In this document: one piece after another, positions 1 to 7,246 of the stretch
How the letters are laid out: each line of letters opens with the position of its first letter
How positions within the stretch are numbered: the stretch's first letter is position 1
IMG/VR virus record: IMGVR_UViG_3300044645_001220
Location: 1 to 59,638 of that record
DNA: 59,638 nt
Direction: 5' to 3' (one strand)
Source: a virus
Taxonomy: Duplodnaviria; Caudoviricetes
The notes under the pieces: model-generated
The model's database searches: none
What the model saw: only the letters and a program-made list of their open reading frames with translations
What the model was told of the DNA's origin: nothing
Position numbers and translations under genes: made by a program

Positions 1-127
1 TTTTTTTTGCTCCCAGGCATCGCTCCCAGGCATCGCTCCCAGGCCGGGACCGTCGGCGATGCCGGTCCTCGTGGCATCGCTCCCAGGCCGGGACCGTCGG
101 CGATGCCGGTCCTCGTGGCATCGCTCC
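1..127. repeat. Terminal direct repeat (identical to 59512..59638), probably a circular assembly overlap
   Basis: Exact 127-nt identity between the two ends; 127 is a common assembler k-mer. Confidence 0.9.
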
Positions 128-176
128 CAGGCCGGGACCGTCGGCGATGCCGGTCCTCGTGGCATCGCTCCCAGGC
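9..176. repeat. Tandem repeats: 2 x 13 bp (GCTCCCAGGCATC), then 3 x 44 bp
   Basis: Identical 44-bp units at 35-78, 79-122 and 123-166, plus a partial unit at 167-176. Confidence 0.95.
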
Positions 177-464
177 AATGCTAAGCTATCGCCCAAAATT
201 CAGCACCCCGCGCCCCTAGTTGGTGAACCCGCAGCAGGAGGAGGATGGGACAATCGGCACCCCCCGAACGTACTAGGGGGGGGAATTATCGCACCCCCCG
301 GATTGTACCCCCCCGCTCAGGTGCGGTAGGGGGGGTATGGTATTCCCCTACTATGTGCCGCCAGACAGTTCTTAGATTCGGCGCAGTGATGCGTGCGATC
401 TGTAATCCGCCCCTGCGCCGATTTTGACCTCTCGCACGCGCGTATTGCAAGTTGCTATTGCTAA

Positions 465-518
465 GCATAGCTGTCGGGCGATTTTCAGCGTGTCGCATCC
501 CAAGGTAGGTGACAGGGC
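465..518 (+). promoter_or_regulatory. Conserved ~50-bp early-operon element, copy 1
   Basis: Ungapped match to 575-628 and 3775-3828 (GCWTRGCTG-N8-TTTTCAGCG-N2-TCGCATCCC-N4-TRGGTGA); enclosed by a perfect 12-bp inverted repeat (453-464/541-552). Confidence 0.6.
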
Positions 519-574
519 AGGGGGCTTTGGGCAGTGGCTTTTAGCAATAGCAGTAGCAAGTAGCTTTTAGCCAT

Positions 575-628
575 GCTTAGCTGTCCCCGATTTTTCAGCG
601 GGTCGCATCCCGGAATGGGTGAGGGGTG
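575..628 (+). promoter_or_regulatory. Conserved ~50-bp early-operon element, copy 2
   Basis: Same motif, directly upstream of the first early gene. Confidence 0.6.
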
Positions 629-665
629 CGACCGACCAACCAAGTTACTCATGGAGAAGAGTATC

Positions 666-1322
666 ATGCCAGCATTGTATGAGAAGTATCGCCCTTCTAC
701 GCTCGATGACGTAGTTGGGCAAGCAGAAGCCGTTAATCGTATTCGTTTCTTGCAGCAGAGAAACGGGCTTGTCGGTAAGGCGTTCTGGATTAAGGGGCCT
801 TCCGCCAGCGGCAAGACGACTCTGGCTAAGATCATGGCCAGTAGTGTCACCGATGATCTTGCTATCGAAGAGCTAGATGCCCAGGACTTGACGCTCGATA
901 AGGTCAGAGAGTTCTCCGATAAGTGCCGCAAGAGGCCGCTATTCGGGGATTGCTGGGCATTTGTCGCCAATGAGGCACACAATCTCCGCAGTCAGGTGGT
1001 TTCTATGCTCCAGACTGTACTGGAGGAGGAACACGTTCAGCGTCATGGACTCTGGATCTTCACTACTACTGACAAAGGGCACAAGAAGCTGTTCGACGAC
1101 AAGTTCGACAGTTCGCCGTTCCTCAGTAGGGCAATCACTATCGAGCTTACGCTGACGCCAGACAAGCGTATTGAGTACGCCCAGCGACTCATGGCAATCG
1201 CACAAGCCGAAGGACTCGATAACGGCAAGGGAATCGTCGATTTCGCCCACCTAATGGCCAGATGCGAGCTTAACTTCCGCAAAGCGTTTGGCGAGTTGGA
1301 AGTCGGCTGTATGTTTGCCTAG
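666..1322 (+). CDS. Clamp-loader-like AAA+ ATPase (DnaX gamma/tau or RFC N-terminal-like)
   Basis: LYEKYRPSTLDDVVGQ (RFC box), Walker A GPSASGKT, variant Walker B FVANEAH, FTTT sensor-1 and FLSR arginine finger; start chosen after SD TCATGGAG at 649-656. Confidence 0.85.
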   Translation: MPALYEKYRPSTLDDVVGQAEAVNRIRFLQQRNGLVGKAFWIKGPSASGKTTLAKIMASSVTDDLAIEELDAQDLTLDKVREFSDKCRKRPLFGDCWAFVANEAHNLRSQVVSMLQTVLEEEHVQRHGLWIFTTTDKGHKKLFDDKFDSSPFLSRAITIELTLTPDKRIEYAQRLMAIAQAEGLDNGKGIVDFAHLMARCELNFRKAFGELEVGCMFA

Positions 1323-1352
1323 ATTGCCTATCCTTACTGACATTTTGTCAGT

Positions 1353-1394
1353 GCCGCAGAGTCGGTCACAGGGGGTTCGATTCCCTCAAGCGGC
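1353..1394 (+). ncRNA. Minimal tRNA-like element (acceptor-like stem plus T-arm)
   Basis: GCCGC...GCGGC stem enclosing GGGGG-TTCGATT-CCCTC; no D or anticodon arm; intergenic. Confidence 0.45.
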
Positions 1395-1466
1395 TTTCCA
1401 CACGGTTTGTAGCAATGCCACAGCGTTTGTGGCGTTGCCGGTTTCTAGTCTCATGGAGAGATAGCT

Positions 1467-1862
1467 ATGGTCCCGTTCTATGTCAAAGACCGATCCTACA
1501 GGGTGGAGCTTATCTGCGATCCACTGCCCGGACAGCCAGAGAGCCACACCAACAAGATTTTGGTGAAGGTTTACCACGAACCAGCGCTGAAGGAATATCG
1601 CATCATGGCGTTCCCGACGCAGGCAGAGCGTAAGGAGCTTGACGGCATTCCCTACGAAGTCACGAATGTCACCAAGTTTCGGGCTTGCATCGGCATTGTC
1701 GGCAAGACGCCTCGCTACAGCGACAAGCAGCTTCGGGACGTAGTTGCTCAGTCGATTCGCTCTGGTGCAGTTCTCGATTGCGTAGAGCAGGCTTGCAATC
1801 GTAACGGCCTAGTTCTATCTGCCGGGATGATCGAGAAGGTCGCCCCAAGCGTACTTGCCTAG
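1467..1862 (+). CDS. Hypothetical early protein
   Basis: 131-aa ORF with SD TCATGGAG at 1451-1458. Confidence 0.8.
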   Translation: MVPFYVKDRSYRVELICDPLPGQPESHTNKILVKVYHEPALKEYRIMAFPTQAERKELDGIPYEVTNVTKFRACIGIVGKTPRYSDKQLRDVVAQSIRSGAVLDCVEQACNRNGLVLSAGMIEKVAPSVLA

Positions 1863-1901
1863 TCCGTCGCCAGTTCCATTCACGTTCATGGAGAATGCAG
1901 C

Positions 1902-2195
1902 ATGACACCGAAGACCGAAGAAGATTTGATCTACGAAAGCGTTGCCGACTTGGCCTACAAAATGGCCAGAGAGCTTAAAGATCAGGCCATGAGCCTGTAC
2001 GACAGCATGACCGAAGACGAGAGGAAGAAGGTTCTTCCAGAGGAGGCACACGGCAAGAGGTACGCCGCCGCCAGGGTGCTTCTACTCGCAGCAAATATGA
2101 TCGACGAAAAGTCGCCTCTGCATCGCGAGTTCGCAGCAGAGTCGATCCTGAAGAATATCAAGTCGGCGAAACGCATTGTGCGTCAGCGACGATAA
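1902..2195 (+). CDS. Hypothetical early protein
   Basis: 97-aa ORF with SD TCATGGAG at 1886-1893. Confidence 0.8.
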   Translation: MTPKTEEDLIYESVADLAYKMARELKDQAMSLYDSMTEDERKKVLPEEAHGKRYAAARVLLLAANMIDEKSPLHREFAAESILKNIKSAKRIVRQRR

Positions 2196-2261
2196 ACGCA
2201 GAGTGGGGGCCGATGGCCCCTAATGCGGCCTTCCATCGTGGAAGCCAGTCACAAGCCTGGA
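2194..2261 (+). ncRNA. Twister self-cleaving ribozyme (P5-type permutation), copy 1; predicted cut at 2221/2222
   Basis: AA-CGCA-GAGTG, P1 GGGGCC/GGCCCC, TAA, P2 TGCG/CGCA, GC (T2), P3 CTTCCA/TGGAAG, P4 CCAG-TCACAAGC-CTGG, T1 CAC/GTG; matches the twister consensus. Confidence 0.88.
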
Positions 2262-2279
2262 TTCATGGAGAGTATGGCA

Positions 2280-2903
2280 ATGAGTACAAGAGGAACCTAT
2301 GGCTTTCACTCAGAAGTTCGTCGGCAAAGGCATTTCGTTTACATCCACCACGACAACTACCCAGAAGGAGCGGCAACCTATTTCTACACGGCACTCATGA
2401 GCGACAATCAACATGGAAATTTTGCCACGGTATTTGTTCGTTCCGTCAGTCGCTCGGAACTGACGGAAAGCCATGAAATCCACGCAGATACCGAGTATCG
2501 CTACGACGTAACGGGACATGGCCCGGATGCGATTCTTCTAGCATACGAACGCCAGCACAGCCAGAAGCCTGAGTGGTTTCCGTTCTTCAACGGAAGACTT
2601 TACGAGTTTATTCACCAATACCCTGACAACATCAACGGATTCGAGCCGTTCAAGAAGGTGGCCCTGCGGTACGACCAGACCATTGTGCTTAACGACACAC
2701 TAGCAGGTGTTCGATTGCACGATGCTCTTCGCAAAATGAATTTATGGAAAGTTACATTTCGCAATTCCGCCAACTGGAATCGTGTAACTGAAGAAGCGAA
2801 AGCTCTTATTGCGGCCTTTCCAGAATTGCCAGAGCGAATGGATCAGAATTTGATTCCAATGCTCGCTTACCTGAACGAGCATGAAGAACAAAACGCAGAG
2901 TGA
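2280..2903 (+). CDS. Hypothetical phage protein (MSTR...YIHHDNYPEG type) flanked by twister ribozymes
   Basis: SD TCATGGAG at 2263-2270; the last codons (QNAE*) overlap twister copy 2. Confidence 0.8.
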   Translation: MSTRGTYGFHSEVRRQRHFVYIHHDNYPEGAATYFYTALMSDNQHGNFATVFVRSVSRSELTESHEIHADTEYRYDVTGHGPDAILLAYERQHSQKPEWFPFFNGRLYEFIHQYPDNINGFEPFKKVALRYDQTIVLNDTLAGVRLHDALRKMNLWKVTFRNSANWNRVTEEAKALIAAFPELPERMDQNLIPMLAYLNEHEEQNAE

Positions 2904-2956
2904 GGGCTTCGGCCCGTAATGCGGCTCCCCACAGTGGGGAACGGTCACAAGCCCGG
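2892..2956 (+). ncRNA. Twister self-cleaving ribozyme (P5-type permutation), copy 2; predicted cut at 2917/2918
   Basis: AA-CGCA-GAGTG, P1 GGGC-TTCG-GCCC, TAA-TGCG-GC, P3 TCCCCA/TGGGGA, P4 CGG-TCACAAGC-CCG; core identical to copy 1 while the stems differ with pairing kept. Confidence 0.88.
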
Positions 2957-2966
2957 AGGAATCACC

Positions 2967-3353
2967 ATGAAGACGATTGAGATTTGCGGGTGCAGCGAAT
3001 GGTTTCGCTTGCACACTGAAGCAGTGCCGAACGGACTCGATAGCGACACAGAGAACGACGCTATCGCTTCCCTGGTGACTGACATCAGCCGAGCGCTCGA
3101 CCATTTGAGGTACGCCAACTACGTCGCAACTCACGGATACCACCAGTGGAACGGCTTGGACGGAGTTGCAGGAGGATACTCTCGCAGGCCGAGAATTGCA
3201 GGCGGCGTAGTTCGTGCAGTCGCTTGCAAACTGACGCCAGAGGAGGTCGATGAAGTAGAGAAAACCGTTTCTCAGTGCATGAGTGACTTCCGTGAAGGAC
3301 TCGATGCCGCCCTGGAAAGTTGCGGGTATTTCGCCGAGCCGGAAGACGAATAA
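2967..3353 (+). CDS. Hypothetical early protein
   Basis: ATG after GGAGGA at 2955-2960; the longer track ORF runs through the ribozyme. Confidence 0.75.
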   Translation: MKTIEICGCSEWFRLHTEAVPNGLDSDTENDAIASLVTDISRALDHLRYANYVATHGYHQWNGLDGVAGGYSRRPRIAGGVVRAVACKLTPEEVDEVEKTVSQCMSDFREGLDAALESCGYFAEPEDE

Positions 3354-3383
3354 AAAAGCCGCAGCAATTACGCCACGGCTTTC
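3352..3383 (-). terminator. Probable intrinsic terminator, possibly bidirectional
   Basis: AAAGCCG/CGGCTTT stem with an A-run on + (U-tail on -), between convergent genes. Confidence 0.55.
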
Positions 3384-3404
3384 ATACGATCGGCGATGGG
3401 TTCG

Positions 3405-3515
3405 CTACTTGCACTTACAGGTGCCAGACCCACACTTGCGGCAACCGCCGCCCTTGCCGCCCTTGCCGCCACCTTTACCGCCCTTTGTCCCCTTCATAGG
3501 AGTGCCCTTTGCCAT
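3405..3515 (-). CDS. 36-aa Gly/Lys/Cys-rich peptide (MAKGTPMKGTKGGKGGGKGGKGGGCRKCGSGTCKCK)
   Basis: Translated by hand (below the ORF-track cutoff); own sigma70 promoter upstream and terminator downstream. Confidence 0.7.
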   Translation of the reverse strand: MAKGTPMKGTKGGKGGGKGGKGGGCRKCGSGTCKCK

Positions 3516-3550
3516 GAAGACTTACTGAAAACCGTAACGCCACAGGTCGA

Positions 3551-3579
3551 AGAGTATCACTGTTTTGTTGTCGTGTCAA
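3551..3579 (-). promoter_or_regulatory. Sigma70-type promoter for the antisense peptide gene
   Basis: TTGACA-17 bp-TACTCT with a TG extension on the minus strand. Confidence 0.7.
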
Positions 3580-3596
3580 ATTCATGGAGGTGCATC

Positions 3597-3770
3597 ATGC
3601 TACGAATCACGGTTCCCGTTGGGGCAAGTTTCATAGTGGGGAAAGCCACTGTTACCCTACTCAAGCGCCACGGAAACCATATCTCGGTGACGGTTGAAGC
3701 GCCGAAGGAAATCCCCATTCGGCGTATCCGCCAAGACGGTACTCCAGTAGAGAGAAAACCAGCCAAGTAG
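3597..3770 (+). CDS. csrA: CsrA/RsmA-family carbon storage regulator homologue (57 aa)
   Basis: MLRITVPVGASFIVGKATVTLLKRHGNHISVTVEAPKEIPIRR aligns with CsrA (ML....G....IG...V.V....G..V......APKE..V.R); SD TCATGGAGG. Confidence 0.8.
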   Translation: MLRITVPVGASFIVGKATVTLLKRHGNHISVTVEAPKEIPIRRIRQDGTPVERKPAK

Positions 3771-3774
3771 CAAT

Positions 3775-3828
3775 GCTTGGCTGGTCCCGATTTTTCAGCG
3801 GCTCGCATCCCGAAGTGGGTGACGGGCA
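3775..3828 (+). promoter_or_regulatory. Conserved ~50-bp early-operon element, copy 3
   Basis: Same motif as 465-518 and 575-628, upstream of the ATPase/vWA gene cluster. Confidence 0.6.
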
Positions 3829-3856
3829 AGTTTCAAATTTTTCATGGAGCAGAATT

Positions 3857-4681
3857 ATGTCGAACAATCTCGGAGAAGTTGTCGGTTGGTCAGTCGATAC
3901 CAAGGGCACTGTCGTTCACGATGTACGCCAAGCACTTGCCACCGCTGGTTTCGAGCCAGACGCCGCTAAGGATCTCAACGCCAAGCACGCCTGGGGCAGA
4001 GCGATCAAGTCGCTAAAGGAAAGCCGATCGATCGACAAGCTGGTTGACGAGGATGGCAGTATCAGCTTCCAGTTCACACGCAAGGCTGTTCTTGGTGGTC
4101 GATTCGAGTTCGATTACGAGTTCACAGTTCACCTTGACGCAACGACTGGCAACGTCACTTGTCCAGAGCGGCCAGATTTTGCGATCGAGGCACAGAACCT
4201 AGTCAATGCGGCCTACAACGACCGCAACGCCAGTGACATCAGCCGCATCGTCATGCGACTGTTCAAGAAACGTGCCGACCTGTTCCCAGTCATCCCCGAC
4301 AAGGGTGTGGTTTACTTCGTGCCGCATCAGCACAAGGAGTTCACCGACCGCATCGAAACTTTCCTGTCTGCTATGGGTGGCAAGTTGCATCGCTTTATTG
4401 TCCCCAAGGGTGACGAGAAGTCGAATCGCGAGGTCCGAGATTCCGTGATGGCTGGCATGGAGGAAATGATTCAGGAGCTTTCCGCTTCCGTCGATGGCTG
4501 GGACGATACGACCCGCACCGACACAATCAACCGCGCTCTTGACCGCTATCAGAAGATCCGCCTCAAGATGGACGCCTACGCTGAGTTCCTGTCCGACAAG
4601 TCAGGAGAGATCCGCACCCGCCTTGACGACGCCAGGAAGCAGTTCCTAGCCAAGGTCGAAGAGTTCTCTGCCGCCAAGTAG
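3857..4681 (+). CDS. Conserved protein upstream of the MoxR ATPase (DUF6744-like)
   Basis: LGEVVGWS and GVVYFVP motifs, helical C-terminus, position before the AAA-vWA pair. Confidence 0.6.
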   Translation: MSNNLGEVVGWSVDTKGTVVHDVRQALATAGFEPDAAKDLNAKHAWGRAIKSLKESRSIDKLVDEDGSISFQFTRKAVLGGRFEFDYEFTVHLDATTGNVTCPERPDFAIEAQNLVNAAYNDRNASDISRIVMRLFKKRADLFPVIPDKGVVYFVPHQHKEFTDRIETFLSAMGGKLHRFIVPKGDEKSNREVRDSVMAGMEEMIQELSASVDGWDDTTRTDTINRALDRYQKIRLKMDAYAEFLSDKSGEIRTRLDDARKQFLAKVEEFSAAK

Positions 4682-4735
4682 TTCACGTTCGATTTGTTTC
4701 AAGTGTTTTTCATCAAGGTTCATGGAGAATCCACT

Positions 4736-5830
4736 ATGTCAGTTCAAGCCAAGTTTGCCGCCTTCCGTACCGCCCTTCATGCTGGCATGGTCCAGCGAGA
4801 AGAGGAGTCCGATATGGTTCTCACGGCCCTTCTTTGCCGGGAACACGCCTTGGTTGTGTCGCCGCCAGGAGAAGGCAAGTCGATGTTGCTCGACGCCATC
4901 ATGGCATGGGCGAAGGCCCCCAAGTTTGATATTCTTCTCAACAAGTTCTCGACTCCAGAAGAAGTCCTCGGCCCCATCAGCGTGACTTCGATGAAGTCTG
5001 ACCAGTATCGTCGCATCACCGACGGTATGCTTCCGCAGGCATCGGTGGCGTTCCTCGACGAAATCTTCAAGGCATCGTCGGCGATCCTCAATACGACTCT
5101 CAAGATCCTCAACGAGCGTAAGTTCCGCAACGGTATCGAGACTCTTGACTGCCCCCTGCTATTGTGTGTCGCCGCCAGCAACGAGTGGCCTTCATCCAGC
5201 GACGGCCTGGGCGCCCTGTTCGATCGGTTCCTGTTCCGCAAGACGGTAGGTACGATCAACGACGAGCGTGGCATCAAGCGATTGCTCTGGGACGACTCGA
5301 TCGGCGTCAAGATTGCCGACACGATCAGCCTGCCGGAAATCAATCTGGCTTGCGATCAAGCAGCGGCAATGCCCTGGACGCCAGAGGCCCAAGACGCCAT
5401 GTACGATTGCGTGGTCGGCGTTCGCCGCGAAGGTGTTCACGTTGGCTCCCGACGTATTCGCAAGTCAGTGCGTGCAGCACAGGCTTTCGCTTTTCTTGAC
5501 GGTTCCGACGCTGTTCAGCCCGAACACTTGGAGATTCTTTCGCACGTTCTCTGGGAAGACCCCAGCGAGCAACCGAAGATCGTCGCCAAGACAATCATGC
5601 AGATTGCCAACCCAGGCAACGCTGTTGTGATGCAGCTTTTAACCGAATGCGAGCAGGCTGTTGACGGCCTCGACATCAAGGATGCAGCCGCCACCACTGT
5701 CTGCATCAAGAAGCTCTCCGAGATTCAGACGCAACTCAAGGGGACCAAGGGGACCAAGGCAACCGCCGCTCTCCAGTACGTCAGCGACAAGATCAAGAAG
5801 ATCAAGCTCGACTTGGTTGCAGCGTTCTAG
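4736..5830 (+). CDS. MoxR/RavA-like AAA+ ATPase
   Basis: SPPGEGKS, STPEEVLGP, FLDEIFKASSAILNTTLKILNER, ASNE, ALFDRF. Confidence 0.92.
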   Translation: MSVQAKFAAFRTALHAGMVQREEESDMVLTALLCREHALVVSPPGEGKSMLLDAIMAWAKAPKFDILLNKFSTPEEVLGPISVTSMKSDQYRRITDGMLPQASVAFLDEIFKASSAILNTTLKILNERKFRNGIETLDCPLLLCVAASNEWPSSSDGLGALFDRFLFRKTVGTINDERGIKRLLWDDSIGVKIADTISLPEINLACDQAAAMPWTPEAQDAMYDCVVGVRREGVHVGSRRIRKSVRAAQAFAFLDGSDAVQPEHLEILSHVLWEDPSEQPKIVAKTIMQIANPGNAVVMQLLTECEQAVDGLDIKDAAATTVCIKKLSEIQTQLKGTKGTKATAALQYVSDKIKKIKLDLVAAF

Positions 5831-5875
5831 GTTTCTCTTGTTCTGTTCACGTTCACCAAACTCAGGAGAATCACT

Positions 5876-7246
5876 ATGGATCTTCGCGACTTACTTGCCG
5901 ACAAGTCAGGCATCGACGACGGTACTGTCGGGACCGCACCAGTGCAGGCGACTCCAACCAAGTTCAGCCTGCACCATGACGAATGGTCGCAGCGACGGGG
6001 TTCCGAATTGTTCCAGGGCAGCGAGGAATTGCAGGGTATCTTCTCCGCTGTTGACGGCGACATCGCAGAGACGGCGACGACCGACTTCCGTGGTGGTGCT
6101 TTCGAGTATCGCCCCAAGCAGTCGGACAACTGCACCAATCCGCGACTCGCCAAGTACATGCAAGCCCTCATGGATACCGAGGAGTTCCGCCAGCTTCGCA
6201 CTGTCACAGTCGGCGACGAGAATGCCAGCGAGATTGCGGCCCTTAAGTTTGCGTCAGGGTTCGCAAAAGTCATGGAGGAAGTCACCGAGGAGCAGGCCGC
6301 TACCGATAAGGGCGAGGTCGCTATCGACGTTCAGGCTGTTCGTGCCGCGATGGACGCCAGCCAAGCCATCGATCAGTACGAGGATGTTCGCGACTCCCTT
6401 CCCGGTATGGGTGGCGATCCCGCTGGGGCCAAGCCAATTACGCAGGAAGCAGTAGCCGGTTTGTTCGGCAAGATCCGCAAGAGTTCGATGCTCATGGGAA
6501 TCATGCGACTGGCAGGACGCTACCGCCGCATCGCCCAGTCTGCCCAGCGCCGCAAGGTTCCAGTCGGCATCGACGATGTTGTCGGCGTGCATCAGTCAGG
6601 CGACATCGGAAAGCTACTGCCGTCAGAGCTTGGCCGATTGTCCGACCCGATGTTCGAGGACGATACCATGCGACGTATCGTAGAGAACGCCGCCCAGTGT
6701 CGCGAGCATTGCGGTAACGAGTCAGTAGGCAAGGGTCCGATTGTCGTGATCGTTGACGAGACTGGCAGCATGACCAACAACGATAACATCTACCACGCAA
6801 AAGCGTTCGCCCTCAGTCTGTACTGGGTGGCGAGCAGCCAGAAGCGATGGTGCTGTCTGGTTGGCTACGCCGGGGAGGGTATGAATGTTCTTGTCATCCC
6901 TCCTGGTGCCAACAAGACCGACCAAGTTCTTGAGTGGCTGGAGCATTTCGAGAACGGTGCAACGAATCTTTGCATCCCAGTCGATAAGCTACCCGCCGCA
7001 TGGAGTTCGTTCGGCTGTCCGAAGGGGCAGACCGACATCGTTCAGATCACCGACGCCATCTGCCGCATCCCTGCGGAGACTGTCGCCAGATTCAACACCT
7101 GGAAAAAGCAGGAGCAGGTTCGGTTCCTCACGATCGTAATCGCCGAGGCAGCAGGAGAAGCCGCCAAGATTAGCGACGATTGCTGGGTGTATAATTCAAT
7201 GGCCGCAGGCAGTGACGCCATCAACGACATTCTCAGAAAGGTGTAA
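5876..7246 (+). CDS. vWA-domain protein (ViaA-like MoxR partner)
   Basis: LLPSEL, GKGPIVVIVDETGSM (MIDAS), GATN, ITDA. Confidence 0.88.
   Translation: MDLRDLLADKSGIDDGTVGTAPVQATPTKFSLHHDEWSQRRGSELFQGSEELQGIFSAVDGDIAETATTDFRGGAFEYRPKQSDNCTNPRLAKYMQALMDTEEFRQLRTVTVGDENASEIAALKFASGFAKVMEEVTEEQAATDKGEVAIDVQAVRAAMDASQAIDQYEDVRDSLPGMGGDPAGAKPITQEAVAGLFGKIRKSSMLMGIMRLAGRYRRIAQSAQRRKVPVGIDDVVGVHQSGDIGKLLPSELGRLSDPMFEDDTMRRIVENAAQCREHCGNESVGKGPIVVIVDETGSMTNNDNIYHAKAFALSLYWVASSQKRWCCLVGYAGEGMNVLVIPPGANKTDQVLEWLEHFENGATNLCIPVDKLPAAWSSFGCPKGQTDIVQITDAICRIPAETVARFNTWKKQEQVRFLTIVIAEAAGEAAKISDDCWVYNSMAAGSDAINDILRKV

What the first reader, a model, noticed from the sequence alone, without database searches (positions are those of the whole stretch)
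2194..2956. Two twister ribozymes bracket one gene: a natural Tornado- or retrozyme-like cassette
Seen: two twister cores with identical conserved nucleotides (AACGCAGAGTG...TAATGCGGC...GTCACAAGCC) and different but still paired P1/P3/P4 stems flank ORF 2280-2903, whose last codons are part of ribozyme 2. Established: twisters cut U/A, leaving 5'-OH and 2',3'-cyclic phosphate, the ends RtcB ligates; this is the principle of the engineered Tornado system and resembles eukaryotic retrozymes. Inference: cuts at 2221/2222 and 2917/2918 free a 696-nt RNA holding the RBS and complete ORF. It could circularise, and the junction would rebuild a chimeric twister. That suggests a circular or stabilised phage mRNA, or a ribozyme-bounded mobile gene unit.
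Basis: partly seen in the sequence, partly recalled or inferred. Interest (0 to 1): 0.9.

Follow-up and report, generated by a model that had tools for sequence, protein, structure and literature searches.

The report
Twister ribozyme pair framing a phage gene
Two genuine self-cutting twister RNAs sit in the gaps on either side of one small gene in a lake phage, a known phage habit that most likely chops a long early message into single-gene pieces; nothing here shows that the piece becomes a circle.

Summary
Rfam's Twister-P5 model (RF02684) matches 2197-2260 (48.7 bits) and 2894-2956 (46.6 bits), against a gathering score of 37.6. The cores are identical and the stems differ but still pair. 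The predicted cuts, U2221/A2222 and U2917/A2918, would release 696 nt holding the ribosome-binding site and ORF 2280-2903.

The window is a complete 59.6-kb tailed phage. Each ribozyme starts at the upstream stop codon and ends at the downstream Shine-Dalgarno sequence.

This layout is common in phages. Of 50 twister-bearing viral records, 12 carry 2-7 twisters. In 78 of 138 phage twisters an ORF stop lies at the ribozyme's first bases. Perreault et al. 2011 described the same layout for hammerheads, including the variable genes and the circle idea.

What is new here is that near-identical strains keep both twisters but carry a different gene between them (DUF4942, L203), or an extra hybrid twister plus a 74-aa gene (L205). 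Swaps also occur at a junction without a ribozyme. Twister junctions break no more often than ordinary gene junctions (7/17 against 90/288).

The phage encodes no RtcB, RNA ligase or reverse transcriptase, and no RNA data could be had. My verdict is mRNA processing and insulation. Circles and mobility remain untested.

This scan has noted ribozyme pairs flanking phage genes on other DNA before.

The parts
1902..2195 (+). Upstream gene (97 aa, no family). Its TAA stop at 2193-2195 lies two bases before ribozyme 1.
   Evidence: ORF list, sequence; no Pfam or PHROG hit
2197..2260 (+). Twister ribozyme 1, type P5. P2 is CGCA/UGCG; P1, P3 and P4 are closed hairpins. Predicted cut between U2221 and A2222.
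   Evidence: RF02684 at 48.7 bits against a cut-off of 37.6; fold; pair counts; identical in L202, L203 and L206
2222..2917 (+). The 696-nt RNA that cutting at both ribozymes would release. It runs from the 3' part of ribozyme 1, through the Shine-Dalgarno sequence and the gene, to the 5' part of ribozyme 2 with its P1 hairpin. Predicted ends are a 5'-OH and a 2',3'-cyclic phosphate.
   Evidence: Inferred from the class cut site and the sequence; not observed as RNA
2267..2272 (+). Shine-Dalgarno sequence GGAGAG of the framed gene, 7 nt before ATG 2280. It lies inside the TCATGGAG box that recurs before other early genes.
   Evidence: Sequence; repeat families D4 and D7
2280..2903 (+). The framed gene, 'cargo A' (207 aa). 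It belongs to a large unnamed phage family with a conserved N-terminal His/Asp-rich half. Its TGA stop lies inside ribozyme 2.
   Evidence: No Pfam or PHROG hit; 671 clusters of relatives at E<=0.001; AlphaFold2 pLDDT 91.7; no PDB fold match at E<=0.001
2894..2956 (+). Twister ribozyme 2, type P5. Same core as ribozyme 1, different P1, P3 and P4. Predicted cut between U2917 and A2918. The outer P4 pair is A.G.
   Evidence: RF02684 at 46.6 bits; fold; identical in L202, L203 and L206
2955..3353 (+). Shine-Dalgarno sequence GGAGG (2955-2959, its first two bases inside P4 of ribozyme 2) and the downstream gene 2967-3353 (128 aa), which is confined to this phage lineage.
   Evidence: Sequence; only 3 clusters of relatives, 74-100% identical
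3597..3770 (+). CsrA-like gene (57 aa), the last gene before the terminator-like element. Context only.
   Evidence: PF02599 at 25.6 bits, E 1.2e-05, just under the cut-off of 27
3758..3826 (+). Terminator-like hairpin with a T run, inside a 59-nt element that is repeated at 458 and 568. It may mark the limits of the transcription unit that holds the ribozymes.
   Evidence: consensus scans only

Best explanation
The two twisters are active-type self-cleaving ribozymes. They sit in two successive gaps between genes in an early, same-strand operon near the left end of a tailed lake phage.

As the long transcript is made, each ribozyme folds and cuts itself at its U-A step. This separates the message into single-gene pieces. 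The middle piece (2222-2917) carries one accessory gene. It begins with a compact folded leader (the P3 and P4 hairpins, 5'-OH) just ahead of its Shine-Dalgarno sequence. It ends 14 nt after its stop codon with the P1 hairpin and a cyclic phosphate.

The likely effect is to uncouple each gene's stability and translation from its neighbours. This would be a natural counterpart of engineered ribozyme insulators. It would suit a slot whose gene is exchanged between strains.

Shown here: class membership, placement, recurrence in phages, and the variable cargo. Inferred: cleavage in vivo, and its effect on stability or translation. The direction of any stability effect depends on the host's RNases and is unknown.
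For: Both copies exceed the Rfam gathering score over the full model. Their helices and pseudoknots covary across 18 phage twisters.

The placement is tight and matches the common phage pattern. In 138 core-pattern twisters from 119 viral loci, the stop of an ORF of 50 or more codons lies within -6 to +12 of the ribozyme's first base in 78 of 138. At random places in the same loci the figure is 66 of 690. The peaks at -3, -4 and +7 include both classes seen in this window. A downstream start lies within 30 nt in 82 of 138, against 268 of 690 at random.

Same-strand arrays are frequent. Of 50 twister-bearing viral records, 12 have 2-7 matches at E<=0.001, and 8 of 50 have two or more above the cut-off. 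Most gaps between twisters hold a single small ORF.

Both ribozymes are kept unchanged in strains 96-97% identical, including the strain with a different cargo. The hybrid twister in L205 differs from ribozyme 1 in P3 by two compensatory pair changes and keeps the same loop. This argues for selection on the fold.

Literature, passages read:
- Perreault et al. 2011 (PMC3088659, section 6) report hammerheads flanking single genes of changing identity in prophages. All were cleaved in vitro, and the authors read them as processing long phage transcripts.
- The review PMC6765202 (section 13) states the same suggestion for twisters.
Against: No cleavage assay or RNA data exist for this locus. Only 2 of the many gene junctions in this operon carry a ribozyme, so processing is not a general need of the operon.

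Ribozyme 2 has a non-standard outer P4 pair. Its fold z-score alone is weak (-1.16).

The benefit of cutting (stability, insulation, or control by the nearby CsrA-like protein) is conjecture. Published work on the glmS ribozyme, which I recall and did not read here, shows that a 5'-OH end can destabilise an RNA in some hosts rather than protect it.
Confidence: 0.72

Rival explanations
1. Circular or end-joined mRNA. After both cuts, the ends of the 696-nt piece dock as a hybrid twister and are joined, either by a host RtcB-type ligase or by reversal of the ribozyme reaction. This would give a circular, exonuclease-resistant message.
For: The end chemistry of the class fits RtcB (established knowledge, recalled). 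All contacts between the two halves are identical in the two copies: P2 and the two pseudoknot pairings. A natural hybrid of this kind (L205:693-757) is a valid twister at 49.4 bits. The released piece holds a complete Shine-Dalgarno sequence and ORF.
Against: The phage encodes no RtcB and no PF09414 RNA ligase, and the host is unknown. The junction would rebuild an intact self-cleaving twister, which should reopen the circle. Engineered systems, as I recall them, avoid this. The ORF has its own stop codon, so a circle gives no endless reading frame. Perreault et al. 2011 looked for circular or spliced products from hammerhead arrays and report finding none (data not shown; PMC3088659 section 6, passage read). 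My paper searches found no report of natural phage mRNA circles made by ribozyme pairs.
Confidence: 0.08
2. Ribozyme-bounded mobile or exchangeable cassette. The unit 'twister half - gene - twister half' moves between phages. It would move either by DNA recombination within the conserved ribozyme cores or through an RNA intermediate, as retrozymes do.
For: Strains 96-97% identical keep both twisters but carry a different gene. Homology stops 2-11 nt after ribozyme 1 and resumes 2 nt before ribozyme 2 (L203; the same loose ends appear in runs X18 and X23). L205 has a hybrid twister and an extra 74-aa gene. Two related arrays differ by two whole twister-plus-gene units (L207 against L211). HSP ends lie near twisters 150 times in 2088, against 28.8 expected at random places.
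Against: Measured against the fairer control of ordinary same-strand gene junctions, there is no excess: 7 of 17 twister junctions against 90 of 288 others carry a breakpoint, p = 0.43. The sample is small and my gene calling was crude. In the same operon, L203 has a 559-nt gene inserted at a junction that has only a conserved Shine-Dalgarno box and no ribozyme. Relatives of cargo A in other phages have no ribozymes (0 of 20 loci by Rfam; 0 of 80 by pattern). There is no reverse transcriptase in the phage, and no empty site or target duplication was seen.
Confidence: 0.15
3. Leaderless translation from the cut end. Cutting leaves an AUG (from the UAAUGC core) one base from the new 5' end, which would give an N-terminally extended protein.
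For: The core AUG is in frame and open into the downstream gene for ribozyme 1 (226 codons), ribozyme 2 (144), ribozyme 1 of L203 with its other cargo (288) and L204a (124).
Against: It is not general. Only 20 of 138 phage twisters are open for 60 or more codons in the AUG frame, against 28 and 30 in the other two frames. The hybrid twister in L205 and the second twister in L204 meet an early stop (read). Relatives of cargo A all start at the Met of ATG 2280 (M1 invariant), and each gene has its own Shine-Dalgarno sequence.
Confidence: 0.04

Closest known systems
Type-P5 twister self-cleaving ribozyme (Rfam RF02684). The class was described by Roth et al. 2014; that paper was not held here, so it is cited from recall and from the reference list of PMC6765202.
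   Same: Full-length matches above the gathering score. Same conserved core. P1 closed, with the ends open at P5. P2, P4 and the pseudoknot pairings are present and covary.
   Different: Nothing essential. Both copies carry the optional P3 hairpin. Ribozyme 2 has an A.G outer P4 pair.
Clustered hammerhead ribozymes flanking single genes or short gene blocks in prophages (Perreault et al. 2011, PMC3088659, section 6, passages read).
   Same: Several same-strand self-cleaving ribozymes lie close together in phage DNA and bracket single genes whose identity is not constant. The proposed role is processing long phage transcripts into single-gene mRNAs. The circle idea was raised there too.
   Different: The ribozyme class is twister, not hammerhead. 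Here the change of cargo is seen between near-identical strains, with the breakpoints at the ribozyme edges.
Twister ribozymes as mRNA 3'-UTR and polycistronic processing elements in bacteria (Felletti et al. 2017, seen only as cited in review PMC6765202 section 13; the paper itself was not held).
   Same: Twister cleavage within an mRNA is proposed to set the stability or expression of the flanking cistrons.
   Different: That work used reporter constructs. Nothing was measured here.
Engineered ribozyme devices: the Tornado circular-RNA system and RiboJ-type insulators (both recalled; no paper on either was read here).
   Same: Flanking or leader ribozymes give defined 5'-OH and cyclic-phosphate ends. 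An insulator standardises the leader of the downstream gene whatever lies upstream.
   Different: Tornado removes the ribozymes and leaves a ligation stem. Here a junction would restore an intact ribozyme, and no ligase is encoded. No circle was shown.
Eukaryotic retrozymes (PMC4918200 seen only in a search listing; review PMC7761336 passages read).
   Same: Two self-cleaving ribozymes delimit an RNA that could be excised.
   Different: As I recall them, retrozymes are non-coding eukaryotic retroelements with repeated ends. They spread through circular RNA and a reverse transcriptase supplied in trans. Here the unit is a protein-coding phage gene, only the roughly 60-nt ribozymes repeat (74% identical), and no reverse transcriptase is present.

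Membership tests
Twister ribozyme, type P5 (RF02684) | Score at or above Rfam's curated gathering score over the full model | tested here: met
   48.7 and 46.6 bits against 37.6; model positions 1-58 of 58 for both
Twister ribozyme, type P5 (RF02684) | Conserved core nucleotides, including the U-A cut step followed by A | tested here: met
   The cmscan alignments match every upper-case consensus position. There are 20 invariant columns across 18 phage twisters. The U-A cut site is taken from PMC6154101.
Twister ribozyme, type P5 (RF02684) | P2 and P4 helices and the two loop-to-junction pseudoknots, kept by compensatory change | tested here: met
   98.6% of 216 cells are paired. Seven of 12 pairs change on both sides; 0 of 500 shuffles reach this, and slid controls give 22-35%. 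Which pseudoknot is called T1 and which T2 is recalled.
Twister ribozyme, type P5 (RF02684) | P5 permutation: P1 closed by a loop, with the RNA entering and leaving at P5 | tested here: met
   P1, P3 and P4 are closed hairpins in the model alignment and in the folds
Twister ribozyme, type P5 (RF02684) | Site-specific self-cleavage | not testable with these tools
   Needs an in vitro transcription and cleavage assay
Phage ribozyme clusters that flank genes (Perreault et al. 2011 type) | Two or more same-strand self-cleaving ribozymes close together in phage DNA, bracketing single genes or short blocks | tested here: met
   Two twisters 697 nt apart on the + strand bracket one ORF in a complete tailed-phage genome. 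The same is seen in 12 of 50 other twister-bearing viral records.
Phage ribozyme clusters that flank genes (Perreault et al. 2011 type) | The identity of the flanked genes is not constant | tested here: met
   Cargo A is seen in the window, L202 and L206. A DUF4942 gene takes its place in L203. A 74-aa gene is seen in L205.
Ribozyme-made circular RNA (Tornado-like or viroid-like) | A covalently closed RNA with the predicted back-junction | not testable with these tools
   No run on record as RNA holds the stretch. The runs laid were contigs and probably DNA.
Ribozyme-made circular RNA (Tornado-like or viroid-like) | A ligase for 5'-OH and 2',3'-cyclic phosphate ends is at hand | tested here: inconclusive
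   No RtcB (PF01139) and no PF09414 ligase in the phage. The host is unknown, and RtcB is common in cells (10 of 14 control genomes).
Retrozyme-like retroelement | Spread through reverse transcription; repeated ends beyond the ribozymes; copies at several sites | tested here: not met
   No RVT_1 in the phage. Only the ribozymes themselves repeat. Relatives of the cargo elsewhere lack ribozymes.

The most novel reading that the evidence does not exclude
Twister-framed slots are the phage's plug-in sockets. Because every type-P5 twister shares the same inter-half contacts, any 'twister 3' half - gene - twister 5' half' unit can be dropped between two resident twisters, by recombination in the cores or through an RNA intermediate. 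The unit would then be expressed as its own insulated message. In cells with RtcB, the docked ends of each released message would be joined into a translatable circle that opens and closes through the rebuilt ribozyme.
Probability: 0.08. Interest if true: 0.8.

Novelty: new member of a known kind. Interest (0 to 1): 0.35.

Why it matters
What self-cleaving ribozymes do in phages and bacteria has been open since they were found there. Reviews still call their roles elusive (PMC6765202 section 13; PMC13725137 introduction; passages read).

This locus does not answer that question, but it is a tidy test case:
- It has two intact twisters and one framed gene.
- Natural alleles differ only in the cargo, or in an added hybrid twister.
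- A CsrA-like regulator lies in the same unit.

That set allows clean experiments on three points: whether cutting insulates or stabilises the framed message, whether the ends are ever joined, and whether the conserved cores help genes to be exchanged. If it is only mRNA punctuation, it is one more example of a habit that is already in print for hammerheads and was met many times in this scan.

Tried and rejected
Context of the cargo's closest relative. L205 and a backward joint in run X13 suggest a strain with the order cargo A, an 87-nt MoxR patch, the hybrid twister, the 74-aa gene, then ribozyme 2. L205 may itself be an assembly path through that 87-nt repeat. This remains unresolved.

Relatives in IMG/VR. 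None was found with cargo A alone, with cargo B, with the DUF6744 neighbour, with a lineage-specific twister pattern, or by blastn against GenBank phages.

RNA evidence. No RNA holder was listed for the stretch. Runs X23 and X24 are labelled RNA-Seq, but the tool rates them as probably DNA and they are held only as contigs. They say nothing about expression, ends or circles.

Function of cargo A. There was no Pfam or PHROG hit. The AlphaFold2 model was confident, but no PDB fold match reached E<=0.001. Atlas feature hits were all under 0.9.

Function of genes in other arrays. Most are of unknown function: DUF7249, DUF6011, one pentapeptide-repeat protein and unnamed PHROGs. No common theme emerged.

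Promoters. The sigma-70 scan found 0 promoter-like sites in 1-6000, so the transcript's start is unknown.

Twisters as recombination hot spots. I considered this and rejected it at the present sample size.

Leaderless translation from the core AUG. I considered this and rejected it as a general feature.

Papers not held: Roth et al. 2014, Weinberg et al. 2015 and Felletti et al. 2017. What they say about twister arrays in phages may bear on novelty, and I could not check it. Supplements were not opened.
Full report
WHAT IS THERE

The window is a complete 59,638-bp virus record with direct terminal repeats. Its major head, terminase, portal and helicase genes mark it as a tailed phage. The same stretch occurs in 22 lake or freshwater metagenome runs.

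All genes in the first 9 kb run on the + strand. Rfam's Twister-P5 model (RF02684) matches 2197-2260 at 48.7 bits and 2894-2956 at 46.6 bits. Both matches are full length and above the gathering score of 37.6. They are the only matches in the window to reach a gathering score, and no other ribozyme family appears even at E<=1.

The two copies share the core words and differ in P1, P3 and P4, which still pair. In an alignment of 18 phage twisters that includes these two, P2, P4 and the two pseudoknot pairings are 98.6% paired. Seven of 12 pairs change on both sides, and 0 of 500 shuffles reach this.

Twisters cut at the U-A step (PMC6154101). That gives U2221/A2222 and U2917/A2918, and a released piece of 696 nt.

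ANATOMY

- Ribozyme 1 begins two bases after the TAA stop of ORF 1902-2195.
- It ends 6 nt before the GGAGAG Shine-Dalgarno sequence (2267-2272) of ORF 2280-2903.
- That ORF's TGA stop (2901-2903) lies inside the 5' strand of ribozyme 2.
- The last P4 bases of ribozyme 2 overlap the GGAGG Shine-Dalgarno sequence (2955-2959) of ORF 2967-3353.

The released piece would therefore start with the folded P3 and P4 hairpins and a 5'-OH. It would end 14 nt past its stop codon with the P1 hairpin and a cyclic phosphate.

A 59-nt element with a terminator-like hairpin and T run stands at 568 and again at 3768. It may bound the transcription unit. The last gene before it is CsrA-like.

HOW COMMON IS THIS?

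I searched the whole records behind 50 of those 119 loci with RF02684. Twelve of the 50 have 2-7 matches at E<=0.001, and 8 of 50 have two or more above the cut-off. The matches lie on one strand, about 350-1300 nt apart. These records were chosen for having a twister, and some are related to each other.

Among 138 core-pattern twisters in the 119 loci, the stop of an ORF of 50 or more codons lies within -6 to +12 of the ribozyme's first base in 78 cases. At random places the figure is 66 of 690. The peaks at -3, -4 and +7 include both offsets seen in this window (-4 and +7). A start codon follows within 30 nt in 82 of 138, against 268 of 690 at random. Most gaps between twisters hold one small ORF of unknown function.

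The layout 'stop, twister, Shine-Dalgarno sequence, start', repeated along an operon, is thus a general phage habit. Perreault et al. 2011 described it for hammerheads. They noted that the flanked genes are not constant, that long phage transcripts may be processed to single-gene mRNAs, and that circular or spliced products are conceivable but were not detected (PMC3088659 section 6). The review PMC6765202 repeats the processing idea for twisters. This scan has noted such ribozyme pairs in at least 86 genomes.

WHAT THIS LOCUS ADDS

A lineage-specific pattern found five metagenome loci.

- L202 and L206 have the window's layout at 96-97% identity.
- L203 is collinear, and both its twisters score the same bits as the window's. 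The gene between them, however, is a 269-aa DUF4942 protein (PF13708, E 6.9e-29). Homology stops 2-11 nt after ribozyme 1 and resumes 2 nt before ribozyme 2.
- Contigs of runs X18 and X23 break at the same places. X18's loose ends match the two ends of that other gene, and X23's matches its start. X18 holds both alleles.
- L205 shows a third twister. Its 5' half equals that of ribozyme 2 (34 of 34 bases). Its P4 is that of ribozyme 1. Its P3 is ribozyme 1's with two compensatory pair changes and the same loop. A 74-aa ORF follows, and then ribozyme 2.
- The 16 letters of that P3 also explain the backward joint seen in run X13. That joint is therefore a DNA variant and not a circle junction.
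- Two related arrays from other phages differ by two whole twister-plus-gene units.

DOES THIS MAKE THE UNIT MOBILE?

The evidence is weak.

- In L203 a 559-nt gene is also inserted at window 1895/1898. That junction has only a conserved Shine-Dalgarno box and no ribozyme.
- Relatives of cargo A are widespread: 671 clusters and 171 viral stretches. None of the 80 loci kept has a twister core, and none of the best 20 has any ribozyme by Rfam.
- HSP ends between related twister-bearing loci fall near twisters five times more often than at random places: 150 of 2088 against 28.8 expected. Set against ordinary same-strand gene junctions, the excess vanishes: 7 of 17 against 90 of 288, p = 0.43. 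The sample is small and my gene calling was crude.

The swaps look like ordinary phage mosaicism at gene borders.

CIRCLES

Nothing tests this directly. No RNA run was listed. The phage has no RtcB, no PF09414 RNA ligase and no reverse transcriptase, and the host is unknown.

The hybrid junction would be a valid twister, as the natural hybrid shows. For that very reason it should cut itself open again (inference). My paper searches found no report of natural phage mRNA circles made by ribozyme pairs.

A SIDE OBSERVATION

The AUG inside the UAAUGC core lies one base after each cut. It is in frame and open into the downstream gene for both ribozymes, and also for L203 and L204a. It is not enriched in phage twisters in general: 20 of 138, against 28 and 30 in the other two frames. 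I give it little weight.

VERDICT

The best reading, with confidence about 0.7, is co-transcriptional cutting of an early phage operon into single-gene messages with structured, protected ends. This would insulate a strain-variable accessory gene from its neighbours. The finding is a new member of a known kind. The circle and mobile-cassette readings stay open but have no direct support.

Noticed in passing
window 458-516, 568-626, 3768-3826: A 59-nt element in three copies (69-100% identical). The copy at 3758-3795 starts with a 12-bp hairpin and a T run (terminator-like), followed by a second small hairpin. Copies stand just ahead of the clamp-loader-like gene and the DUF6744 gene. It may be a terminator-plus-start module that bounds the early units.
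   Followed up: partly
window 3597-3770: A 57-aa ORF matches CsrA (PF02599, 25.6 bits, E 1.2e-05, just under the cut-off of 27). A TCATGGAG-type box recurs before early starts (families D4 and D7 at 1873, 4708, 5840 and 8264) and also lies right after ribozyme 1 at 2263. A first-stage note on this genome proposed a phage CsrA regulon (e1-6283712).
   Followed up: partly
window 5043-5129; protein P0001; L205:1-696: A relative of cargo A (P0001, 91% identical) ends in 27 residues copied from the phage's own MoxR-like ATPase gene. L205 joins MoxR sequence (window 4434-5129) directly to a stop codon and a twister. This is either an 87-nt patch from an illegitimate recombination or an assembly path through that repeat. 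The contig could not be read.
   Followed up: partly
window 1895-1898; L203:1808-2366: A 559-nt insert in strain L203 carries a 145-aa ORF of no known family. It sits exactly after the conserved Shine-Dalgarno box TTCACGTTCATGGAGAA. Run X18 shows the same replacement (587 letters). This is a gene swap at a junction without a ribozyme.
   Followed up: yes
window 2223 and 2919: The AUG of the twister core lies one base after each predicted cut. It is in frame and open into the downstream gene (226 and 144 codons). This is also true in L203 and L204a but is not general among phage twisters (20 of 138).
   Followed up: yes
window 29-176: Three exact 60-nt copies spaced 44 nt apart, with shorter 13-nt-spaced copies at 3-50, lie next to the terminal repeat at the left genome end.
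   Followed up: no
L148:11533-11601: In another phage, an HDV-like ribozyme (RF02682, 48.4 bits against a cut-off of 44) lies about 1.9 kb downstream of two twisters on the same strand. Different ribozyme classes share one operon.
   Followed up: no
L204:508-571 and 909-978: A different lake phage contig has two twisters 400 nt apart around a 108-aa ORF. The second twister has P2 changed from CGCA/UGCG to CCCA/UGGG, a compensatory change.
   Followed up: yes
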